43,472 nucleotides of DNA from a virus. The DNA lies in UHGV virus genome UHGV-0252305; one strand, given 5' to 3'. This document shows, one piece after another, positions 26,968 through 41,834 of this stretch (position 1 is its first letter; every line of letters starts with the position of its first letter). The position numbers were made by a program, and so were the translations under genes. Below the pieces are notes generated by a model that was not told where the DNA came from, made no database searches, and worked only from the letters and a program-made list of their open reading frames with translations.

Positions 26968-27026
26968 AATTTACCTCTTAGTAAATGAAAAGAGGGACCG
27001 AAGTCCCCCTCGATTATAGCTTAACC

Positions 27027-28100
27027 TTAAGCACCGACACCAGTTACCAGGAAGGCAATCGGTACGTGCTTGCGGTCAACCACACGGCTCCAGTTGGAGG
27101 CGTTCGCCAGGTCCCGCCAGGAAGCAGAGCGCGGGGTAGTCTCGGTGCCGTTGCCAGTGATTACTGCACCGGTGAAGCTGTAACCAAACGGATGTAGCAA
27201 CCAGGTCTTACGGGTCCACAGGGTTTCAACGCCGCCGCCGTTGCCGCGGGACGCTTCGCGCTCGTATTCCAGCGGGTTGGACGGAGAACCTTCACCGTAA
27301 CCGATAGCGCCGTTGCCGAAGATGATGGAGATGAACTTACGGGTCTGGGTCTGGGTCTGGGTCTGGGTCAGGCCAGTGCTGACTACGGTCATGCTGTCGT
27401 CAACAATCACGCGGTAGCCCTGGTAGGTGGCGAACATGGTGTTGTTGTCCGCGTCACGGATGAAGTCGATAAGCTGCTGCTTACGTGCCTGCGCATAAAC
27501 GAAGCTATGCATCGCGATAGCCCCCAGCACTTCACCGCCGTTGCCCATCAGAGCATCGCCCATAGTCTGGGTAGCGTCGATGAACGCGCCCGCATCGAAG
27601 CCCCGAGTAGCAGACACGTCGATTACCATGTCATTCTGCTCGTGGTATTTGTCGGTATCGGCTACGTTGTCATTGTACAGCCCGAGCGCGGTAGCAATCA
27701 GACGGCGTTGTGCCTGGCGCTGCCAGAAGTTATCCAGACGGGACGCTACGGATTGCAGCGGGTTCTGGCTGGTCAGTTCGACAGTCAAATCCGCCTGACC
27801 GAAACCTTCGTTCAGGTATGCAACGCGGGCCATCATCTCACCGGTCTGCACGTTACGCGGGGTGGCGATGTCCTGATATACATCGTTCGAGTAGTTAGGC
27901 TCGATAGAGGTATCAATCGCTTTCCAGAACGGAATATTAGCGACGTTGGACGGGCCGCGGGCAATCTCGGCAGCGTACGGGGTCGGGGTCAGAATACCAG
28001 ACTGGAAGAACGCGGTTTTTTCTACCGGGTCCTCGGTCATATAAGACGCCAGGACCGGGATGTTGCCAGTTACGATATCGCCGATAGTGGTAATTGCCAT
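27027..28100 (-). CDS. Major capsid protein
   Basis: 357 aa directly after scaffold gene; contains internal (TQ)4 repeat. Confidence 0.7.
   Translation of the reverse strand: MAITTIGDIVTGNIPVLASYMTEDPVEKTAFFQSGILTPTPYAAEIARGPSNVANIPFWKAIDTSIEPNYSNDVYQDIATPRNVQTGEMMARVAYLNEGFGQADLTVELTSQNPLQSVASRLDNFWQRQAQRRLIATALGLYNDNVADTDKYHEQNDMVIDVSATRGFDAGAFIDATQTMGDALMGNGGEVLGAIAMHSFVYAQARKQQLIDFIRDADNNTMFATYQGYRVIVDDSMTVVSTGLTQTQTQTQTRKFISIIFGNGAIGYGEGSPSNPLEYEREASRGNGGGVETLWTRKTWLLHPFGYSFTGAVITGNGTETTPRSASWRDLANASNWSRVVDRKHVPIAFLVTGVGA
27341..27369 (-). repeat. In-frame hexanucleotide microsatellite (GGGTCT)4 encoding (TQ)4 in capsid gene
   Basis: Four perfect tandem 6-mers plus partial fifth; protein reads LTQTQTQTQTRK. 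Confidence 0.8.
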
Positions 28101-28102
28101 TA

Positions 28103-28804
28103 TTATTTCCTCAGGGCTTTAAGTTGCCGTTCAAATTCGGCAGGGTTCGATTTATACAGGGCTAAACGCTCTGCTTCACTCATGTCTTTAAACGCTGGTG
28201 CGGCCCCGCCGCCTTTGCTACCGGAAGCCCCGCCGCCGGAAGCTGCATTTGCTTTGATCAAATGCGAAAACGCCTTGTGTTCGCGCAGGTATTTGCGGAA
28301 CTGTTCCGGGTCAGTCGTGATTACGTTACCGTCTGCACCAACAAACTTAGTAACCACATCATCGCCTTCGAACTCAGTCTTAACGAACGGCGCAAGAATG
28401 TCCACTGCTTCTGGGGTAATAAAGTCACCCGCGAAAGAGCCTAGCACCGCTTTACGTTCGCTGCCGAGGATACGCTCTGCCATTCTGGAGATGCGACCGT
28501 CTTTCTCGGCTAACACCGGGTCATACTGGCTACGAATCGTCTTTTCGAACTCATCCATCTTACCAGCGGCTTTTAACGCCTCCTGGTGCGCGCGCTGCCG
28601 TTCTTCTTCGGCCTCTTTTGCTTTGCGAGCGGCTTCTTTCTTCTCCGCCAACAATGCTTCCTGATTAGCCTTAAGCCCGGCAACTTCTTTCTCAATCAGC
28701 GCCTGAACTTCTTCAGCGGTGAACATTTTCGGCGCGTCACCGCCACCAGCTTTATCTTCTGCCCCAGCTTCTTCCTGGAACGGATAACGTAAAAAACGAT
28801 TCAT
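28103..28804 (-). CDS. Scaffolding protein
   Basis: Charged coiled-coil (EEVQALIEKEVAGLKANQEALLAEKKEAARKAKEAEEERQRAHQ) immediately upstream of capsid gene; ATG at 28804 with SD AGGGGA. Confidence 0.6.
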   Translation of the reverse strand: MNRFLRYPFQEEAGAEDKAGGGDAPKMFTAEEVQALIEKEVAGLKANQEALLAEKKEAARKAKEAEEERQRAHQEALKAAGKMDEFEKTIRSQYDPVLAEKDGRISRMAERILGSERKAVLGSFAGDFITPEAVDILAPFVKTEFEGDDVVTKFVGADGNVITTDPEQFRKYLREHKAFSHLIKANAASGGGASGSKGGGAAPAFKDMSEAERLALYKSNPAEFERQLKALRK

Positions 28805-28886
28805 AGTCAGTATGTCCCCTGGACGTTGGAACCCGGGCCACCCGGATTTACATGTCAAGAATAAATTATTCCAACATGCAAGGCAA

Positions 28887-29150
28887 CTATTCCAGAATAT
28901 TCCTCACGTAATCCTGCAACATGAACACTTTCAGCCGCAGCTGCCGTACGCATTCAGCGTTCTGAACGTCGATAGCTAAATCCTCGTCAGCGTCGCTACT
29001 TGGAGCTGCCAGTTTGCACGGAGGCTGCATCATCGTCGTATCCGGTAATGGAATTAGCGTTTGCGACGGCGTGGGACTTGAGCAGGACGCGAGCATCGTC
29101 GAAAGTGCACACGCTGCGACCTGGCGTTTTAATGTATTTAACGACTTCAC
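28887..29150 (-). CDS. Candidate o-spanin (Rz1-like lipoprotein) embedded out of frame in the Rz candidate
   Basis: Lipobox LASC after a signal-like N-terminus; Pro-rich mature region; starts inside 28996..29382 and extends beyond it. Confidence 0.4.
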   Translation of the reverse strand: MKSLNTLKRQVAACALSTMLASCSSPTPSQTLIPLPDTTMMQPPCKLAAPSSDADEDLAIDVQNAECVRQLRLKVFMLQDYVRNILE

Positions 29151-29382
29151 GGGTAATCACCTCTGATTTCGTCTTGCCTTCGTTGTCGGCGGCGGCGGCC
29201 TTTGATTCGTCCTGCTGCTGCCGTTGTGTTTTCTTCGCTAACTCAGCCTGCGCTTTCTGCTGTTGCTGCGAAACGAGATTCGCCCGGCCTTCGCTCCAGC
29301 CGCTGCGATACTGGTAAATGCCGTGGGCGTAAGCCAGGATGATGAAACATGCTCCTGCTACGACAGTTGCTTTAAGATTCAT
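28996..29382 (-). CDS. Candidate i-spanin (Rz-like)
   Basis: N-terminal TM segment followed by Gln/Ala/Lys-rich coiled-coil (QQQKAQAELAKKTQRQQQDESKAAAADNEGK). Confidence 0.45.
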   Translation of the reverse strand: MNLKATVVAGACFIILAYAHGIYQYRSGWSEGRANLVSQQQQKAQAELAKKTQRQQQDESKAAAADNEGKTKSEVITREVVKYIKTPGRSVCTFDDARVLLKSHAVANANSITGYDDDAASVQTGSSK

Positions 29383-29492
29383 GTTTCCCCTTTCTCGATA
29401 AGTAAAGCCCCGCCATAAAGCGGGGCGCTAGTCCTTATCATTTAAACATAGAAACGGCGTAATCTCAGTAAACCAGTTACTTTTTACACAAG

Positions 29493-29647
29493 CAATAGAG
29501 TATGGCCCTTCCGAACGCGTCAGCGTAACTACACTCAGGACTTACGTCCCGCTCCGTTACCTGCCCGCGCCGCGGTCGCTTGTTCATACTTCACAAGCTC
29601 AGGTGGAGCTTAGCACATTTTTGGTGAAAAGTCAACTATTCGAATAG
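29493..29647 (+). repeat. ~150-bp intergenic direct repeat, copy 1
   Basis: Aligns by eye with 41415..41567 at roughly 75% identity; includes 16-bp palindrome AACTATTCGAATAGTT at 29634..29649. Confidence 0.7.
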
Positions 29648-29701
29648 TTTATTCCAACATTTACAATTGAGTGGAATAACCGGAATACATAAACAAATAG
29701 T

Positions 29702-29757: not shown

Positions 29758-29853
29758 ATGTTAGTCGTTATTTCAGTAGTAATTGCAGTTGATGCGGTGA
29801 TGTTTCTTTGGGCTTGTAGTGGTATTGGTGACACGGGTAATGGTGAACTATGA
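29758..29853 (+). CDS. Small hydrophobic peptide (31 aa) preceding lipoprotein gene
   Basis: SD GGGAGG; ATGA overlap with lipoprotein start; translation verified. Confidence 0.3.
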   Translation: MLVVISVVIAVDAVMFLWACSGIGDTGNGEL

Positions 29854-30194
29854 AATATATTAAATTAGCAGTAGCAGGTGTTGTAGCCGTTTGTTTGAGT
29901 GGTTGCGTAAGGTCGTTGCCAGACCCGGCTTTACAGGTTTATCAGGCAGGGGATACAACGGCAACATGTAATCAGTTACTATCGAGAATCGCCACGACAA
30001 AACAAGCTCAAGCCAACGCTACGCACCGTGTTAATAAGCAAATAGGTACTAACGTTGTACTCGGTGTTACAGGCGCATTCCTGATTGTTCCGCTGTTCTT
30101 TATGGACACGGGCGCCGGGCCTTCTATGGACGAGATGACAGCCGGTAATCGTCTGTCGCAGTTACAACAAACATACGACGAGAAATGCAAATGA
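29850..30194 (+). CDS. Lipoprotein (signal peptide plus lipobox LSGC)
   Basis: MKYIKLAVAGVVAVCLSGC...; own promoter-like site and terminator; opposite strand to flanking structural genes. Confidence 0.6.
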   Translation: MKYIKLAVAGVVAVCLSGCVRSLPDPALQVYQAGDTTATCNQLLSRIATTKQAQANATHRVNKQIGTNVVLGVTGAFLIVPLFFMDTGAGPSMDEMTAGNRLSQLQQTYDEKCK

Positions 30195-30266: not shown

Positions 30267-30289
30267 AAAGCCCCATAGCGGGGCTTTTT
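30267..30289. terminator. Bidirectional terminator after lipoprotein gene
   Basis: 8-bp stem aaagcccc/ggggcttt with T-runs on both strands. Confidence 0.7.
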
Positions 30290-37875: not shown

Positions 37876-38361
37876 TCAACCTTTCACCGCGCGCCCAATG
37901 GCCTCAGCCTCTTGCCACGGTTTACCGTCAAATAATGCCAGTCTCCCGGCTGTACGGCGACGCAGGCCAAGTAACGGTTTGCCGTTCTGGTTGATGAACA
38001 GCGCCAGCTTAGCCCGCAGCGTTGCAATATCACCAGAACGCAGTGCCTTACCCGTGCCGGTAGTAGCAGCAATCACACCAGCACCTGCGTTGTATACCAG
38101 GTCGCACACTGCATCGAACTGTGCCTGTGTCAGTGAATGGTGTGCCGTCGCGTCAACCGCAGCTACGGCTTTAGCCATATCGCGATTAAGTAACAGGAGG
38201 CCTTGTCCTGGAGTGATGGTCTGCCCCGCCTTAACATGCGGGCCATAGCTTCCATACCCAATAGTCAGGTACTTCTCATTCGGTGTAGCGCGATACGCGG
38301 TTCCGCGGAATCCCTCGAACGCGGCGGTGAATTTGATGCCATTGTTGCTAATGTTTCTCAT
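37876..38361 (-). CDS. Endolysin, GH24 lysozyme (P22 gp19 / T4 lysozyme-like)
   Basis: ISNNGIKF...FEGFRGTAY...TIGYG and QAQFDAVCDLVYNAG...ALF patterns match P22 gp19-type lysozyme as recalled; follows holin genes. Confidence 0.85.
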   Translation of the reverse strand: MRNISNNGIKFTAAFEGFRGTAYRATPNEKYLTIGYGSYGPHVKAGQTITPGQGLLLLNRDMAKAVAAVDATAHHSLTQAQFDAVCDLVYNAGAGVIAATTGTGKALRSGDIATLRAKLALFINQNGKPLLGLRRRTAGRLALFDGKPWQEAEAIGRAVKG

Positions 38362-38424
38362 AAAGCACCTTCCCGTAATTTATGGTTCGCGAAAACCTCG
38401 CGCAGCTTATCTGCGGTAAGTCCA

Positions 38425-38697
38425 TTATCTGAAATATTTCGAGACACGCTTATGCCCTCCGTACGACAGCCACGCCTGACGAATCTGACGCAGCGCAACT
38501 AATGTGATTAATGTCTCAGGCAGCGTCGGTGACATGCTGCCCTGTAACAGGTGGATACATCCGGCGGCGCAGACAATAGCAGTCAGAATATAAAGCACAC
38601 GCCCGAACAGCCCGTCGTCCACGTGTTCGTTATACACGTTGAACAGGGACGAAGCGCCCATTGAAAGCATTACGACAAACCAGAATAGCTCAGTCAT
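38425..38697 (-). CDS. Second lysis membrane protein (holin or antiholin-like, 2 TM)
   Basis: ATG at 38697 overlaps holin stop; two hydrophobic segments; track N-terminal extension rejected. Confidence 0.4.
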   Translation of the reverse strand: MTELFWFVVMLSMGASSLFNVYNEHVDDGLFGRVLYILTAIVCAAGCIHLLQGSMSPTLPETLITLVALRQIRQAWLSYGGHKRVSKYFR

Positions 38698-38998
38698 GTG
38701 GTCCTCCTGGGCGGGCAATATCGCCGCCCGATACGATGCCAGAAAGGCGGGAATAGATAGGCATCCAGAGAATGGCAATGATGAATCCGAGGCCCGCTAT
38801 TTCGCGTTCACCTGCGATACCGAACCATTGAGCGGCGAGAGGCGCACCGAATACGGCGCACGCAAAGCCAGTGGCGAGAAAACAGAGAGCATCGACAGGG
38901 CCGGTAATAGTGGCTTTGTGTTGCCTTAGTCCGATTACCCCTCCGGCTAGTGCGGCAGCGAGAAGCCACCCCGTCACAGTTTCAGTAAATTTATCCAA
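38690..38998 (-). CDS. Holin-like membrane protein (about 3 TM segments)
   Basis: 102 aa with three hydrophobic segments and charged C-terminus, directly upstream of endolysin. Confidence 0.5.
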   Translation of the reverse strand: MDKFTETVTGWLLAAALAGGVIGLRQHKATITGPVDALCFLATGFACAVFGAPLAAQWFGIAGEREIAGLGFIIAILWMPIYSRLSGIVSGGDIARPGGPHD

Positions 38999-41414: not shown

Positions 41415-41567
41415 CAATAGACTTTGACCCTTCCGAAAGCGTCAGCGGAACTACACTCAAGTGCCTAATGGCACGCGTTGCGTTCCCTGCCGCTCCGCGG
41501 TCGCTTGCGATATCTCACAAGCTCAGTGAAGCTTAGCATATTTTCAAGTAAAAGTCAATACCAGTAG
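41415..41567 (+). repeat. ~150-bp intergenic direct repeat, copy 2
   Basis: Shares blocks ccttccgaa.gcgtcagcg.aactacactca, ccgcggtcgcttg, tcacaagctcag, agcttagca, aaaagtcaa with copy 1. Confidence 0.7.
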
Positions 41568-41605
41568 CATCTTTTGTATTTTAGTAACTTTGCGTGGTGT
41601 TTTGG

Positions 41606-41634
41606 TTGCTTTTACAAAGTTACCGCCTTATACT
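41606..41634 (+). promoter_or_regulatory. Promoter-like site TTGCTT-17-TATACT
   Basis: Between repeat copy 2 and AlpA-like gene. Confidence 0.35.
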
Positions 41635-41663
41635 TCGATACATATTACACAGGAGAGCGCGAG

Positions 41664-41834
41664 ATGACTATCAATGAAGTTGCAGAATTAATCGGCGTCA
41701 CCCGCCAGACGATCAATAACTGGATTAAGAGTGGAAAGTTTCCTGATTGCAGCGTTAAAGTAATGGGGCGCCGTTTACCAGGAACATTTGACCGTAATAA
41801 AGTTGAAGCGTGGATTAAGGAGAACGTGAAATGA
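41664..41834 (+). CDS. AlpA/excisionase-like small HTH DNA-binding protein
   Basis: MTINEVAELIGVTRQTINNWIKSGKFP; ATG at 41664 with SD AGGAGA. Confidence 0.6.
   Translation: MTINEVAELIGVTRQTINNWIKSGKFPDCSVKVMGRRLPGTFDRNKVEAWIKENVK

What the first reader, a model, noticed from the sequence alone, without database searches (positions are those of the whole stretch)
28887..29382. Candidate Rz/Rz1 spanin pair with embedded architecture, located ~9 kb from the holin-endolysin genes
ORF 28996..29382 has an N-terminal TM segment and a Gln/Ala/Lys-rich coiled-coil typical of i-spanins. An out-of-frame ORF (28887..29150) starting inside it has a lipobox (LASC) and a Pro-rich mature region typical of o-spanins. 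The pair lies between the lipoprotein cassette and the scaffold gene, far from the lysis cassette at 37876..38998. That would place the spanins in a late structural transcript rather than with holin and endolysin.
Basis: partly seen in the sequence, partly recalled or inferred. Interest (0 to 1): 0.45.

Follow-up and report, generated by a model that had tools for sequence, protein, structure and literature searches.

The report
Known overlapped Rz/Rz1 spanin gene pair
This is the already catalogued two-gene "spanin" pair that Kagunavirus/Jersey-like phages use to break the host outer membrane at lysis; it is ordinary, and its position away from the holin and endolysin genes is a published trait of this phage group.

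Summary
Both ORFs exist, on the minus strand. Rz-like i-spanin: 29382..28996, 128 aa, N-terminal TMD. Rz1-like o-spanin: 29150..28887, 87 aa, GTG start, lipobox LAS|C23.

They share 155 bp in the +1 frame, and the o-spanin runs 109 nt past the Rz stop. The architecture is therefore "overlapped", not "embedded".

The window is a Kagunavirus (Guernseyvirinae). Both proteins hit PHROG spanin families. They are 92% and 83% identical to the K1H and K1G spanins listed in SpaninDB (Kongari 2018, "Jersey" family, overlapped, same 155-bp overlap).

All 47 related loci keep the +1 ORF with a lipobox Cys. All 22 loci with enough flank have the endolysin 7.2-9.1 kb upstream on the same strand. This separation is stated in print for phage Schulenberg. 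Verdict: real, correctly interpreted apart from the architecture label, and already known.

Two by-products:
- Many GenBank/RefSeq records truncate the o-spanin to 47-48 aa, which removes its signal peptide.
- Directly upstream of Rz lies a conserved promoter, a ~110-nt structured RNA with strong covariation and no Rfam match, and a terminator-like hairpin. A paralogous copy heads the operon that contains the holin and endolysin genes. Its function is untested.

The parts
28996..29382 (-). i-spanin (Rz-like) gene, 128 aa, ATG start. TMD at residues 5-23 (nt 29314-29370). Periplasmic domain with Cys92 (nt 29107-29109).
   Evidence: ORF list. PHROG 2536 'Rz-like spanin', E = 2.6e-54. 118/128 identical to the K1H i-spanin of SpaninDB and 80/128 to phage Jersey. 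Hydropathy.
28887..29150 (-). o-spanin (Rz1-like) gene, 87 aa, GTG start, +1 frame relative to Rz. Signal peptide at residues 1-22, lipobox LAS|C23 (nt 29082-29093), Ser at +2, Cys45 and Cys67. Mature lipoprotein of 65 aa.
   Evidence: PHROG 5672 (E = 3e-30) and PHROG 1267 (E = 2.5e-17), both 'Rz-like spanin'. 72/87 identical to the K1G o-spanin. ORF plus lipobox Cys kept in 47/47 loci. Purifying selection in the tail.
28996..29150 (-). 155-bp region read in two frames (Rz codons 78-128 plus stop; Rz1 codons 1-52). This defines the 'overlapped' architecture.
   Evidence: Coordinates. The same 155-bp overlap is listed for Jersey, K1G, K1H and K1ind1-3 in Kongari 2018 Table S4, and is found in 35/47 loci.
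29156..29163 (-). Shine-Dalgarno sequence GAGGTGAT of the o-spanin, 5 nt upstream of the GTG start.
   Evidence: Sequence. The same SD is recorded for K1G in SpaninDB.
29387..29392 (-). Shine-Dalgarno sequence AAGGGG of the i-spanin.
   Evidence: Sequence. Same as K1H in SpaninDB.
29398..29439 (-). Extended GC-rich hairpin followed by TTTACTTAT. It is terminator-like and ends 15 nt before the Rz ATG. Its role is inferred.
   Evidence: Terminator scan. Present in all 47 loci with compensatory changes in both helices. Annotated as a terminator in the fBC-Eco01 record.
29493..29602 (-). Conserved ~110-nt structured RNA element (helices H0, P1, P2, P3) at the predicted 5' end of the transcript that leads into Rz. 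Function unknown.
   Evidence: Covariance model R1, 132.7 bits. 94.4% of cells paired, 15/27 pairs changed on both sides, covariation 0.42 against 0.02-0.07 in slid controls. No Rfam family.
29607..29635 (-). Sigma-70-like promoter: TTGACT, 17-nt spacer ending in TGn, then TAAGCT. Predicted only.
   Evidence: Conserved in Kagunavirus and Jersey-like loci. An exact second copy of the motif lies at 41530-41558. Annotated as a 'host promoter' in fBC-Eco01.
28103..28804 (-). Head scaffolding gene, 82 nt downstream of the Rz1 stop. The capsid gene follows at 27027-28100, then a terminator-like hairpin at 26990-27011.
   Evidence: PHROG 206, E = 3e-55. Annotations of relatives. Terminator scan.
37876..38998 (-). 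Partner lysis genes: holin 38998..38690, second holin/antiholin 38697..38425, endolysin 38361..37876.
   Evidence: PHROG 2359, 2508 and 33703/7. Same layout in vB_Eco_K-02 and Jersey.
41415..41558 (-). Paralogous promoter (41530-41558) plus structured RNA element (41415-41526). It sits at the head of the leftward gene block that runs into the holin-endolysin genes.
   Evidence: blastn self-hit at 78% over 147 nt. Alignment. R1 hit of 104.7 bits.

Best explanation
The locus encodes a two-component spanin of the SpaninDB 'Jersey' family in a Kagunavirus genome.

Shown here:
- The two ORFs, their membrane-targeting signals, their homology and their conservation.

Inferred from established spanin biology (lambda Rz/Rz1):
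- The 128-aa i-spanin is anchored in the inner membrane by its N-terminal TMD and projects a largely helical domain into the periplasm.
- The 87-aa o-spanin is made from an internal GTG in the +1 frame. It is processed by signal peptidase II at LAS|C23, lipidated, and sorted to the inner leaflet of the outer membrane (Ser at +2).
- The two proteins bind through their C-terminal regions and form homodimers through periplasmic cysteines (Rz Cys92; Rz1 Cys45 and Cys67). The complex spans the periplasm through the murein mesh.
- After the holins (38998..38425) release the endolysin (38361..37876) and the wall is degraded, the complexes are free to fuse inner and outer membranes, which completes lysis.

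The genes sit 8.5 kb downstream of the endolysin on the same strand, immediately before the scaffold and capsid genes. This layout is conserved across Guernseyvirinae. It is tolerated because spanins accumulate harmlessly until the wall is removed. Expression most likely starts at the promoter at 29635..29607, passes the structured leader and the hairpin, and continues into the scaffold and capsid genes. This expression route is inferred from sequence motifs only.
For: - PHROG spanin families with E = 2.6e-54 (i-spanin) and 3e-30 / 2.5e-17 (o-spanin); no head-protein family reaches significance.
- 98% DNA identity to Kagunavirus records that annotate 'Rz-like spanin (x2)' or 'o-spanin' here.
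- SpaninDB lists K1G, K1H, K1ind and Jersey spanins as overlapped, with a 155-bp overlap, +1 frame, 128 aa and 87 aa. The window proteins are 118/128 and 72/87 identical to these, with the same overlap.
- TMD, lipobox, +2 Ser and periplasmic cysteines are present.
- 47/47 related loci keep the +1 ORF with a lipobox Cys. The start codon is at the same position, GTG or ATG.
- The tail of the o-spanin ORF is under purifying selection.
- It is the only spanin-like pair in the window.
- The endolysin lies 7.2-9.1 kb upstream on the same strand in 22/22 loci with enough flank, and is never within 3 kb.
[quoted passage not shown] Golestan and fBC-Eco01 papers say the same.
- A single-sequence AlphaFold model gives a long helix at residues 3-84 and a second at 94-107, at low confidence.
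Against: - No spanin of this family has been tested experimentally. Kongari 2018 notes that essentially all experimental work was done on lambda Rz/Rz1.
- No curated Pfam or NCBIfam family matches above threshold, so there is no detectable sequence relation to lambda Rz/Rz1.
- The structural model has low confidence (mean pLDDT 60).
- Transcription signals are consensus matches without transcript data. A terminator-like hairpin directly upstream of Rz would, taken at face value, limit expression from the upstream promoter.
Confidence: 0.9

Rival explanations
1. The o-spanin is the short 47-48-aa product annotated in RefSeq/GenBank for Golestan gp08, vB_Eco_K-02 and fEg-Eco06. It would start at MMQPPC... 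and lack a signal peptide and lipobox. The upstream part of the +1 ORF would then be non-coding overlap.
For: Several public records annotate only 144-147 nt. PHROG 5672 is a 47-residue profile that matches residues 41-87.
Against: - The upstream 40 codons carry a canonical n-h-lipobox signal in 47/47 loci, although the sequence diverges: LSAC, LASC, LNGC, LSGC.
- An 8-nt Shine-Dalgarno sequence precedes the GTG.
- The start position is conserved as GTG or ATG.
- SpaninDB and the RefSeq record of phage Jersey use the 87-aa form.
- Kongari 2018 documents 64 o-spanins with wrong starts in databases.
- A cytoplasmic 47-aa peptide could not reach the outer membrane.
Confidence: 0.02
2. ORF 29382..28996 is a head-assembly or scaffold-associated membrane protein, co-located with head genes for that reason, and the +1 ORF is fortuitous.
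For: The ORF lies between head-decoration and scaffold genes on the same strand. There is one weak PHROG hit to a head-tail adaptor, E = 0.056.
Against: - The five best PHROG hits are all spanin families, the top one at E = 2.6e-54.
- The +1 lipoprotein ORF is conserved and under selection.
- No other spanin candidate exists in the genome, although it has holins and an endolysin and infects a Gram-negative host.
Confidence: 0.02
3. The pair descends from spanins but is dispensable or repurposed in this phage, for example as envelope modification or superinfection exclusion. Outer-membrane disruption would then be done by another factor, such as a disruptin-like peptide or the accessory lipoprotein at 29850..30194.
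For: Function is untested for this family. A neighbouring accessory ORF combines a lipobox with a hydrophobic segment, which superficially resembles a unimolecular spanin.
Against: - The pair is universally conserved in 47/47 loci, with all functional signals intact.
- The accessory lipoprotein is in only 11 of 50,697 phage records and 1 of 47 loci, so it cannot be the general outer-membrane disruptor.
- Its predicted periplasmic segment is only about 48 residues.
Confidence: 0.05

Closest known systems
SpaninDB 'Jersey' i-spanin and o-spanin families (Kongari et al. 2018, PMC6139136): phages Jersey, SETP3, SE2, K1G, K1H, K1ind1-3 and others
   Same: Same lengths (128 and 87 aa), same 155-bp overlap, same +1 frame and same SD sequences. 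92% (K1H) and 62% (Jersey) identity for the i-spanin; 83% (K1G) for the o-spanin. Same position between the Hoc-like and scaffold genes.
   Different: Only allelic detail differs. Here the lipobox is LAS|C23, against LSA|C22 in K1G, so the mature protein is 65 rather than 66 aa. Both alleles circulate in Kagunavirus: 14 versus 17 of the 37 loci for which a lipobox was scored.
Escherichia phage Schulenberg (PMC6763661), VB_EcoS-Golestan (PMC7203180) and fBC-Eco01 (PMC9825357)
   Same: Published genome descriptions that call these two genes spanins. They note that the genes are separate from the holin/antiholin and endolysin genes.
   Different: The Golestan RefSeq record truncates the o-spanin CDS to 47 aa.
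Lambda Rz/Rz1
   Same: Same functional class and predicted topology: a type II inner-membrane protein paired with an outer-membrane lipoprotein encoded in its +1 frame, with periplasmic cysteines and late expression.
   Different: In lambda, Rz1 is fully embedded and the pair is the last part of the S-R-Rz/Rz1 cassette. There is no detectable sequence similarity: no Pfam Rz or Rz1 hit.
P2 LysB/LysC and T4 PseT.3/PseT.2
   Same: P2 is the tested example of the overlapped architecture. T4 is the textbook case of spanin genes not located near the holin and endolysin genes.
   Different: They belong to different sequence families. The T4 genes are 'separated', and the P2 genes lie inside the lysis cassette.
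For the upstream RNA module only: lambda/Stx-phage pR'-tR' short leader RNA (6S/StxS; PMC7547250) and HK022 putL/putR (PMC9378689)
   Same: A promoter-proximal ~200-nt unit that ends in a terminator just before late or lysis genes. Two paralogous copies per genome, each directly downstream of a promoter. A two-stem-loop layout.
   Different: There is no sequence or structure match: model R1 finds nothing in HK022 and there is no Rfam family. No Q-like protein was identified. Both copies point the same way. Function is untested.

Membership tests
Two-component spanin (i-spanin/o-spanin functional class) | i-spanin: a single N-terminal TMD with the rest of the protein periplasmic | tested here: met
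   Residues 5-23 have KD19 = 1.72, and no other hydrophobic segment is present.
Two-component spanin (i-spanin/o-spanin functional class) | o-spanin: signal peptidase II signal with a lipobox Cys, and no Asp at +2 (outer-membrane sorting) | tested here: met
   MKSLNTLKRQVAACALSTMLAS|C23, with Ser at +2. The lipobox Cys is kept in 47/47 loci.
Two-component spanin (i-spanin/o-spanin functional class) | Adjacent genes in an embedded, overlapped or separated arrangement | tested here: met
   Overlapped: 155 bp shared, +1 frame, and the o-spanin ends 109 nt past the Rz stop.
Two-component spanin (i-spanin/o-spanin functional class) | Periplasmic cysteines available for homotypic intermolecular disulfides | tested here: met
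   Rz Cys92; Rz1 Cys45 and Cys67. These are conserved in all relatives shown. Disulfide formation itself cannot be tested here.
Two-component spanin (i-spanin/o-spanin functional class) | Helical or coiled-coil periplasmic domain in the i-spanin | tested here: inconclusive
   The single-sequence AlphaFold model gives helices at 3-84 and 94-107, but mean pLDDT is only 60. SpaninDB lists one coiled coil at residues 33-66 for K1H, whose sequence is identical to the window over that stretch.
Two-component spanin (i-spanin/o-spanin functional class) | Encoded by a phage of a Gram-negative host that also has a holin and an endolysin | tested here: met
   Kagunavirus of E. coli. Holins and endolysin at 37876-38998.
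Two-component spanin (i-spanin/o-spanin functional class) | Required for outer-membrane disruption; complements lambda Rz/Rz1 defects | not testable with these tools
   This needs genetics and microscopy. According to Kongari 2018 the family has not been tested.
SpaninDB 'Jersey' i- and o-spanin families | At least 40% identity over at least 40% of the length to family members (the grouping rule of Kongari 2018) | tested here: met
   i-spanin: 118/128 to K1H, 113/128 to K1G, 80/128 to Jersey. o-spanin: 72/87 to K1G.
SpaninDB 'Jersey' i- and o-spanin families | Overlapped architecture with a 155-bp overlap in the +1 frame | tested here: met
Lambda Rz / Rz1 sequence families (Pfam) | Significant match to the Pfam Rz or Rz1 models | tested here: not met
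   No Rz or Rz1 family is listed. The best hit, DUF2514, has E = 0.02 and 15.4 bits, below its 26-bit cut-off. The o-spanin has no hit at all.
Lambda Rz / Rz1 sequence families (Pfam) | Embedded architecture (Rz1 entirely within Rz) | tested here: not met
   The o-spanin stop is at 28887, 109 nt beyond the Rz stop at 28996.
HK022 put-type antiterminator RNA (considered only for the upstream RNA element) | Paralogous copies just downstream of promoters, with a two-stem-loop fold | tested here: met
   Two copies lie 5 and 4 nt downstream of the identical -10 hexamer TAAGCT. A small hairpin H0 plus a long P1-P2-P3 stem are supported by covariation.
HK022 put-type antiterminator RNA (considered only for the upstream RNA element) | Sequence or structure similarity to putL/putR | tested here: not met
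   Model R1 gives no hit with E <= 1 in the HK022 genome. This is a weak test, because R1 was built from a narrow family.
HK022 put-type antiterminator RNA (considered only for the upstream RNA element) | Confers terminator read-through on RNA polymerase in cis | not testable with these tools
   This needs reporter or in-vitro transcription assays.

The most novel reading that the evidence does not exclude
The spanin genes may be the first cistrons of an operon controlled by an undescribed promoter-proximal structured RNA. The module is promoter 29635..29607, a ~110-nt four-helix element at 29602..29493, and a terminator-like hairpin at 29439..29398. A paralogue at 41558..41415 heads the leftward gene block that contains the holins and endolysin. 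If this RNA is a put-like cis antiterminator or an attenuator, the two physically separated halves of the lysis system, together with the head genes, would be coordinated by a shared RNA-based read-through mechanism in a phage group with no recognised N/Q-type factor. The element being a real conserved structured RNA is likely (about 0.8). The specific regulatory reading is speculative.
Probability: 0.2. Interest if true: 0.6.

Novelty: already known. Interest (0 to 1): 0.1.

Why it matters
For the spanin pair itself, little follows. It confirms that this genome has a complete three-step lysis system and that its spanin genes sit where they do in all Guernseyvirinae.

The practical value is for annotation. 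The correct o-spanin CDS is 29150..28887 (87 aa, GTG start). Many deposited Kagunavirus records carry a truncated 47-48-aa version without the lipoprotein signal.

The by-product may matter more. A strongly covarying, unannotated RNA element with its own promoter and hairpin lies directly upstream of the spanins, often under a 'hypothetical protein' call. A second copy heads the block containing the holin and endolysin genes. This gives a directly testable handle on how these widely used therapeutic phages, which lack their own RNA polymerase, control late and lysis gene expression.

Tried and rejected
- Pfam and NCBIfam scans of both proteins gave only sub-threshold, unrelated hits, so there is no curated family beyond PHROGs.
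- The single-sequence AlphaFold2 model of the i-spanin has low confidence (pLDDT 60). It was used only as weak support for helicity, and no fold search was attempted.
- The first lipoprotein scan missed Rz1 because only the first regex match (VAAC) was examined. It was redone with all matches.
- The generic promoter scan missed the promoter upstream of Rz because its -10 (TAAGCT) matches only 3 of 6 positions. It was found by comparative alignment instead.
- Rfam, both at E <= 1 on the locus and at gathering threshold on the whole window, and ARAGORN found nothing.
- RNAalifold on a plain MAFFT alignment gave a poor consensus (-6.6 kcal/mol, 13 pairs) because the variable hairpins were misaligned. 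It was replaced by a covariance-model-guided alignment, which leans towards the model's structure.
- Model R1 found nothing in phage HK022, so membership in the put family is not supported.
- The pattern TTCGGAAGGG-N7-CTATTG in IMG/VR returned only Guernseyvirinae contigs plus a few unrelated chance hits.
- The palindrome GGAATAAnnTATTC was considered as an operator. Only two convincing sites exist (29642-29655 and 28859-28872), and the rest are chance.
- The accessory lipoprotein at 29850..30194 was considered as a unimolecular spanin. It was rejected on its sporadic distribution and short periplasmic segment.
- Literature searches for transcriptomics or small RNAs in Guernseyvirinae found nothing relevant.
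Full report
**1. What is in the sequence**

ORF 29382..28996 (ATG, 128 aa):
- It begins MNLK-ATVVAGACFIILAYAHGIY-QYRSGW.
- Its only hydrophobic segment is residues 5-23 (mean Kyte-Doolittle 1.72).
- The rest is hydrophilic and rich in Ala, Lys and Gln, with a single periplasmic Cys at position 92.

ORF 29150..28887 (GTG, 87 aa):
- It starts 232 nt into the first ORF, in the +1 frame.
- It reads MKSLNTLKRQVAACALSTMLAS|CSSPTPSQTLIPLPDTTMMQPPC...
- This gives a basic n-region, a hydrophobic h-region, the lipobox L-A-S-C23 and Ser at +2.
- There are seven prolines in the first 29 mature residues, and two further cysteines at positions 45 and 67.
- The GTG is preceded by GAGGTGAT at a 5-nt spacing. 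The Rz ATG is preceded by AAGGGG.

The two genes share 155 bp, and the second runs 109 nt beyond the stop of the first. By the field's definitions (embedded, overlapped, separated) this is the overlapped architecture. It is not the embedded one named in the finding's title.

**2. Is it more than chance?**

- In a six-frame scan of the whole window, only five ORFs pass a simple lipoprotein-signal filter. Only this one overlaps an ORF with a single N-terminal TMD.
- Among 47 related loci from IMG/VR, with i-spanin identity from 99% down to 59%, every one keeps the +1 ORF with a lipobox cysteine. The lipoboxes seen are LSAC, LASC, LNGC, LSGC, MSAC, LTSC and ITGC. My filter rejected two loci only because of a Glu in the n-region.
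- The start is at the same position, as GTG or ATG. The 155-bp overlap holds in most loci.
- In the non-overlapping tail (codons 53-87), the window differs from Jersey-like phages by 12-13 synonymous versus 5-7 non-synonymous codons. Of 22-23 substitutions, 14-15 are at third positions. That frame is therefore under purifying selection.

**3. What it is**

The window is a Kagunavirus (Guernseyvirinae). The locus is 95-98% identical to many E. coli phage records, and 338 phage records match in all, mostly Escherichia and Salmonella phages.

Family evidence:
- The i-spanin matches PHROG 2536 'Rz-like spanin' at E = 2.6e-54, plus four further spanin PHROGs.
- The o-spanin matches PHROG 5672 (3e-30) and PHROG 1267 (2.5e-17).
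- The downstream gene is the head scaffolding protein (PHROG 206), and the upstream minus-strand gene is a Hoc-like decoration protein.
- Public records annotate these two genes as 'Rz-like spanin', 'putative spanin' or 'o-spanin'.

Kongari et al. 2018 (PMC6139136) define 'Jersey' i-spanin and o-spanin families under the overlapped class:
- The 27 members of each family include K1G, K1H and K1ind1-3.
- The paper states that the Jersey spanins overlap by 155 bp.
- Its tables give 128-aa and 87-aa proteins, +1 frame and a 155-bp overlap for K1G, K1H, K1ind and Jersey, with the sequences.
- The window proteins are 118/128 identical to the K1H i-spanin and 80/128 to the Jersey i-spanin. The o-spanin is 72/87 identical to K1G.

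Membership of this family is therefore met on every testable criterion. There is no significant Pfam or NCBIfam match. The pair is thus a functional analogue of lambda Rz/Rz1 and not a detectable sequence relative. That fits the extreme diversity of spanins: 143 i-spanin families are described in Kongari's abstract.

**4. Position relative to the lysis cassette**

- Holin (38998..38690; PHROG 2359), second holin (38697..38425; PHROG 2508) and endolysin (38361..37876; PHROG 33703/7) are confirmed.
- All are on the same strand as the spanins. The endolysin stop is 8.5 kb upstream of the Rz start.
- Small ORFs, terminase, portal, head-morphogenesis and Hoc-like genes lie in between.
- The ORFs just downstream of the endolysin have no spanin features or spanin PHROG hits.
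- In all 22 related loci with enough upstream flank, the endolysin lies 7.2-9.1 kb upstream on the same strand. No locus has one within 3 kb. Phage Jersey has the same layout.

The separation is published:
- The Golestan and fBC-Eco01 papers list spanins as ORF7/8 or Gp11/12 and the holins and endolysin near the other genome end.
- Unlinked spanins are also textbook for T4.

Nothing in the finding is new.

**5. Mechanism**

Shown here: the two genes, their targeting signals, the cysteines, the conservation, and the partner holin and endolysin genes.

Inferred from established lambda spanin biology:
- The i-spanin is a type II inner-membrane protein.
- The o-spanin is an outer-membrane lipoprotein.
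- The C-terminal regions associate, and disulfide-linked homodimers form.
- The complex is caged by the murein until the endolysin acts. It then fuses the two membranes.

No member of the Jersey family has been tested experimentally.

A low-confidence AlphaFold model gives helices at residues 3-84 and 94-107. SpaninDB lists one coiled coil at residues 33-66 for K1H, which is identical to the window over that stretch.

**6. Expression context**

The generic scan finds terminator-like hairpins on the minus strand at three places:
- 30287..30267, after the Hoc-like gene. This hairpin is also scored on the + strand.
- 29426..29407, 24 nt before the Rz ATG.
- 27011..26990, after the capsid gene.

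None lies between Rz1 and the scaffold gene. That is compatible with Rz-Rz1-scaffold-capsid being one unit.

Comparative alignment of the 260 nt upstream of Rz shows three conserved parts:
- A promoter-like site: TTGACT (29635..29630), a 17-nt spacer ending in TGn, then TAAGCT (29612..29607). Jersey-like phages have TAGACT-N17-TACGCT.
- About 200 nt of conserved, GC-rich, apparently non-coding sequence.
- An extended hairpin at 29439..29398. Both of its helices show compensatory changes between lineages.

The fBC-Eco01 record independently annotates a host promoter and a terminator at these places.

A second copy of the promoter and the first ~120 nt lies at 41558..41415 on the same strand. 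It sits next to the divergent + strand HTH regulator gene, at the head of the leftward block that runs into the holin-endolysin genes.

A covariance model built from 12 Kagunavirus-type sequences with a four-helix structure gave these results:
- It recovers both window copies, at 132.7 and 104.7 bits.
- It finds the Jersey-type sequences, which were not used for training, at E about 1e-7 to 1e-9.
- On the model-guided alignment of 21 distinct sequences, 94.4% of cells pair and 15 of 27 pairs change on both sides.
- The covariation score is 0.42, against 0.02-0.07 when partners are slid by 1-3 columns. No shuffle out of 500 reaches the observed value on the four measures that exceed their shuffled mean (percentage paired, pairs changed on both sides, cells changed on both sides, covariation score). 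The count of further pair types does not exceed its control: 25 observed against a shuffled mean of 27.6.
- One caveat applies: the alignment is fitted to the model and the sequences are related.

Independent single-sequence folds of six sequence types give the same architecture.

The 36-codon ORF annotated here in some records starts at an ATG in a hairpin loop. That ATG is absent from copy 2 and from the Jersey type, and indels break the frame.

There is no Rfam family, no tRNA and no hit of the model in HK022.

The module is formally reminiscent of two known systems:
- Lambda/Stx pR'-tR', a constitutive promoter giving a short terminated RNA just before the lysis genes.
- HK022 putL/putR, two promoter-proximal two-stem RNAs.

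Membership of either is unsupported, and the function is untested.

The two lysis modules may share a common regulatory leader.

**7. Verdict**

- Novelty: already known. Interest is low.

Useful corrections:
- The pair is on the minus strand and is overlapped, not embedded.
- The true o-spanin CDS is 29150..28887. Many database records truncate it.

Noticed in passing
window 29398-29635 (minus strand): A promoter-like site (TTGACT-N17-TGn-TAAGCT) is followed by a ~110-nt structured RNA element (29493-29602) with strong covariation and a terminator-like hairpin (29398-29439), directly upstream of Rz. There is no Rfam match. Several GenBank records annotate a 'hypothetical protein' over it (36-63 aa, for example Jersey gp08).
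   Followed up: yes
window 41415-41558 (minus strand): A paralogous copy of the same promoter and RNA element (78% identical over 147 nt; 104.7 bits with model R1). It heads the leftward gene block leading to the holins and endolysin, divergent from the + strand HTH regulator gene at 41574-41834. It is followed by a GC hairpin, GGGTGGGC-TAAC-GCCCACCC. Phage Jersey shows only the spanin-proximal copy.
   Followed up: partly
L001 (NC_042084 Golestan gp08), L002 (PQ141284), L003 (PQ436005); window 28887-29150: RefSeq/GenBank records of several Kagunaviruses annotate the o-spanin as a 47-48-aa CDS starting at MMQPPC. This omits the signal peptide and lipobox. The phage Jersey RefSeq record and SpaninDB use the full 87-aa form.
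   Followed up: yes
window 29758-30194 (+ strand): Accessory genes on the opposite strand. One is a 114-aa predicted lipoprotein (LSG|C19) with a hydrophobic segment near residues 67-85 (PHROG 13472, function unknown). It is preceded by a 31-aa ORF with an LWA|C lipobox. The 114-aa ORF occurs in only 11 of 50,697 phage records, all at least 99% identical Kagunaviruses, and in 1 of 47 IMG/VR loci. In vB_Eco_K-02 it is not annotated; minus-strand small ORFs are called instead. It may be a superinfection-exclusion moron.
   Followed up: partly
L050 (= Salmonella phage SETP13) and one search hits versus window 29383-29642: The 260-nt non-coding region upstream of Rz is at least 95% identical in 179 phage records. 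These include Salmonella Jerseyviruses whose adjacent i-spanin is only about 62% identical. This points to a sharp mosaic junction at the Rz start, or to unusually strong constraint on the RNA module.
   Followed up: partly
L039:10001-10589: A related phage has a 71%-identical i-spanin, but its o-spanin has a different N-terminus (lipobox ITG|C18) and overlaps Rz by only 14 bp. This resembles the 'separated' variant FSL_SP-031 discussed by Kongari 2018.
   Followed up: no
window 29082-29093; loci L004-L038: Two lipobox alleles circulate among Kagunaviruses: LSA|C22 (17 loci) and LAS|C23 (14 loci, including the window). They shift the lipidated Cys by one residue.
   Followed up: no
window 30267-30287: A hairpin AAAGCCCC-(loop)-GGGGCTTT with T-runs on both strands is scored as terminator-like in both directions. 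It lies between the Hoc-like gene (minus strand) and the accessory lipoprotein gene (+ strand). It may insulate the variable accessory region.
   Followed up: no
window 28859-28877 and 29642-29660 (minus strand): A repeated ~19-nt motif, ATGTTGGAATAA-nn-TATTC, contains a GAATA/TATTC palindrome and lies just upstream of a TTGAC(T/A) hexamer in both intergenic regions: before the RNA element, and between Rz1 and the scaffold gene. It resembles the PHIRE 'phage promoter' consensus reported for fBC-Eco01. It could be an operator or a second promoter in front of the scaffold gene.
   Followed up: partly
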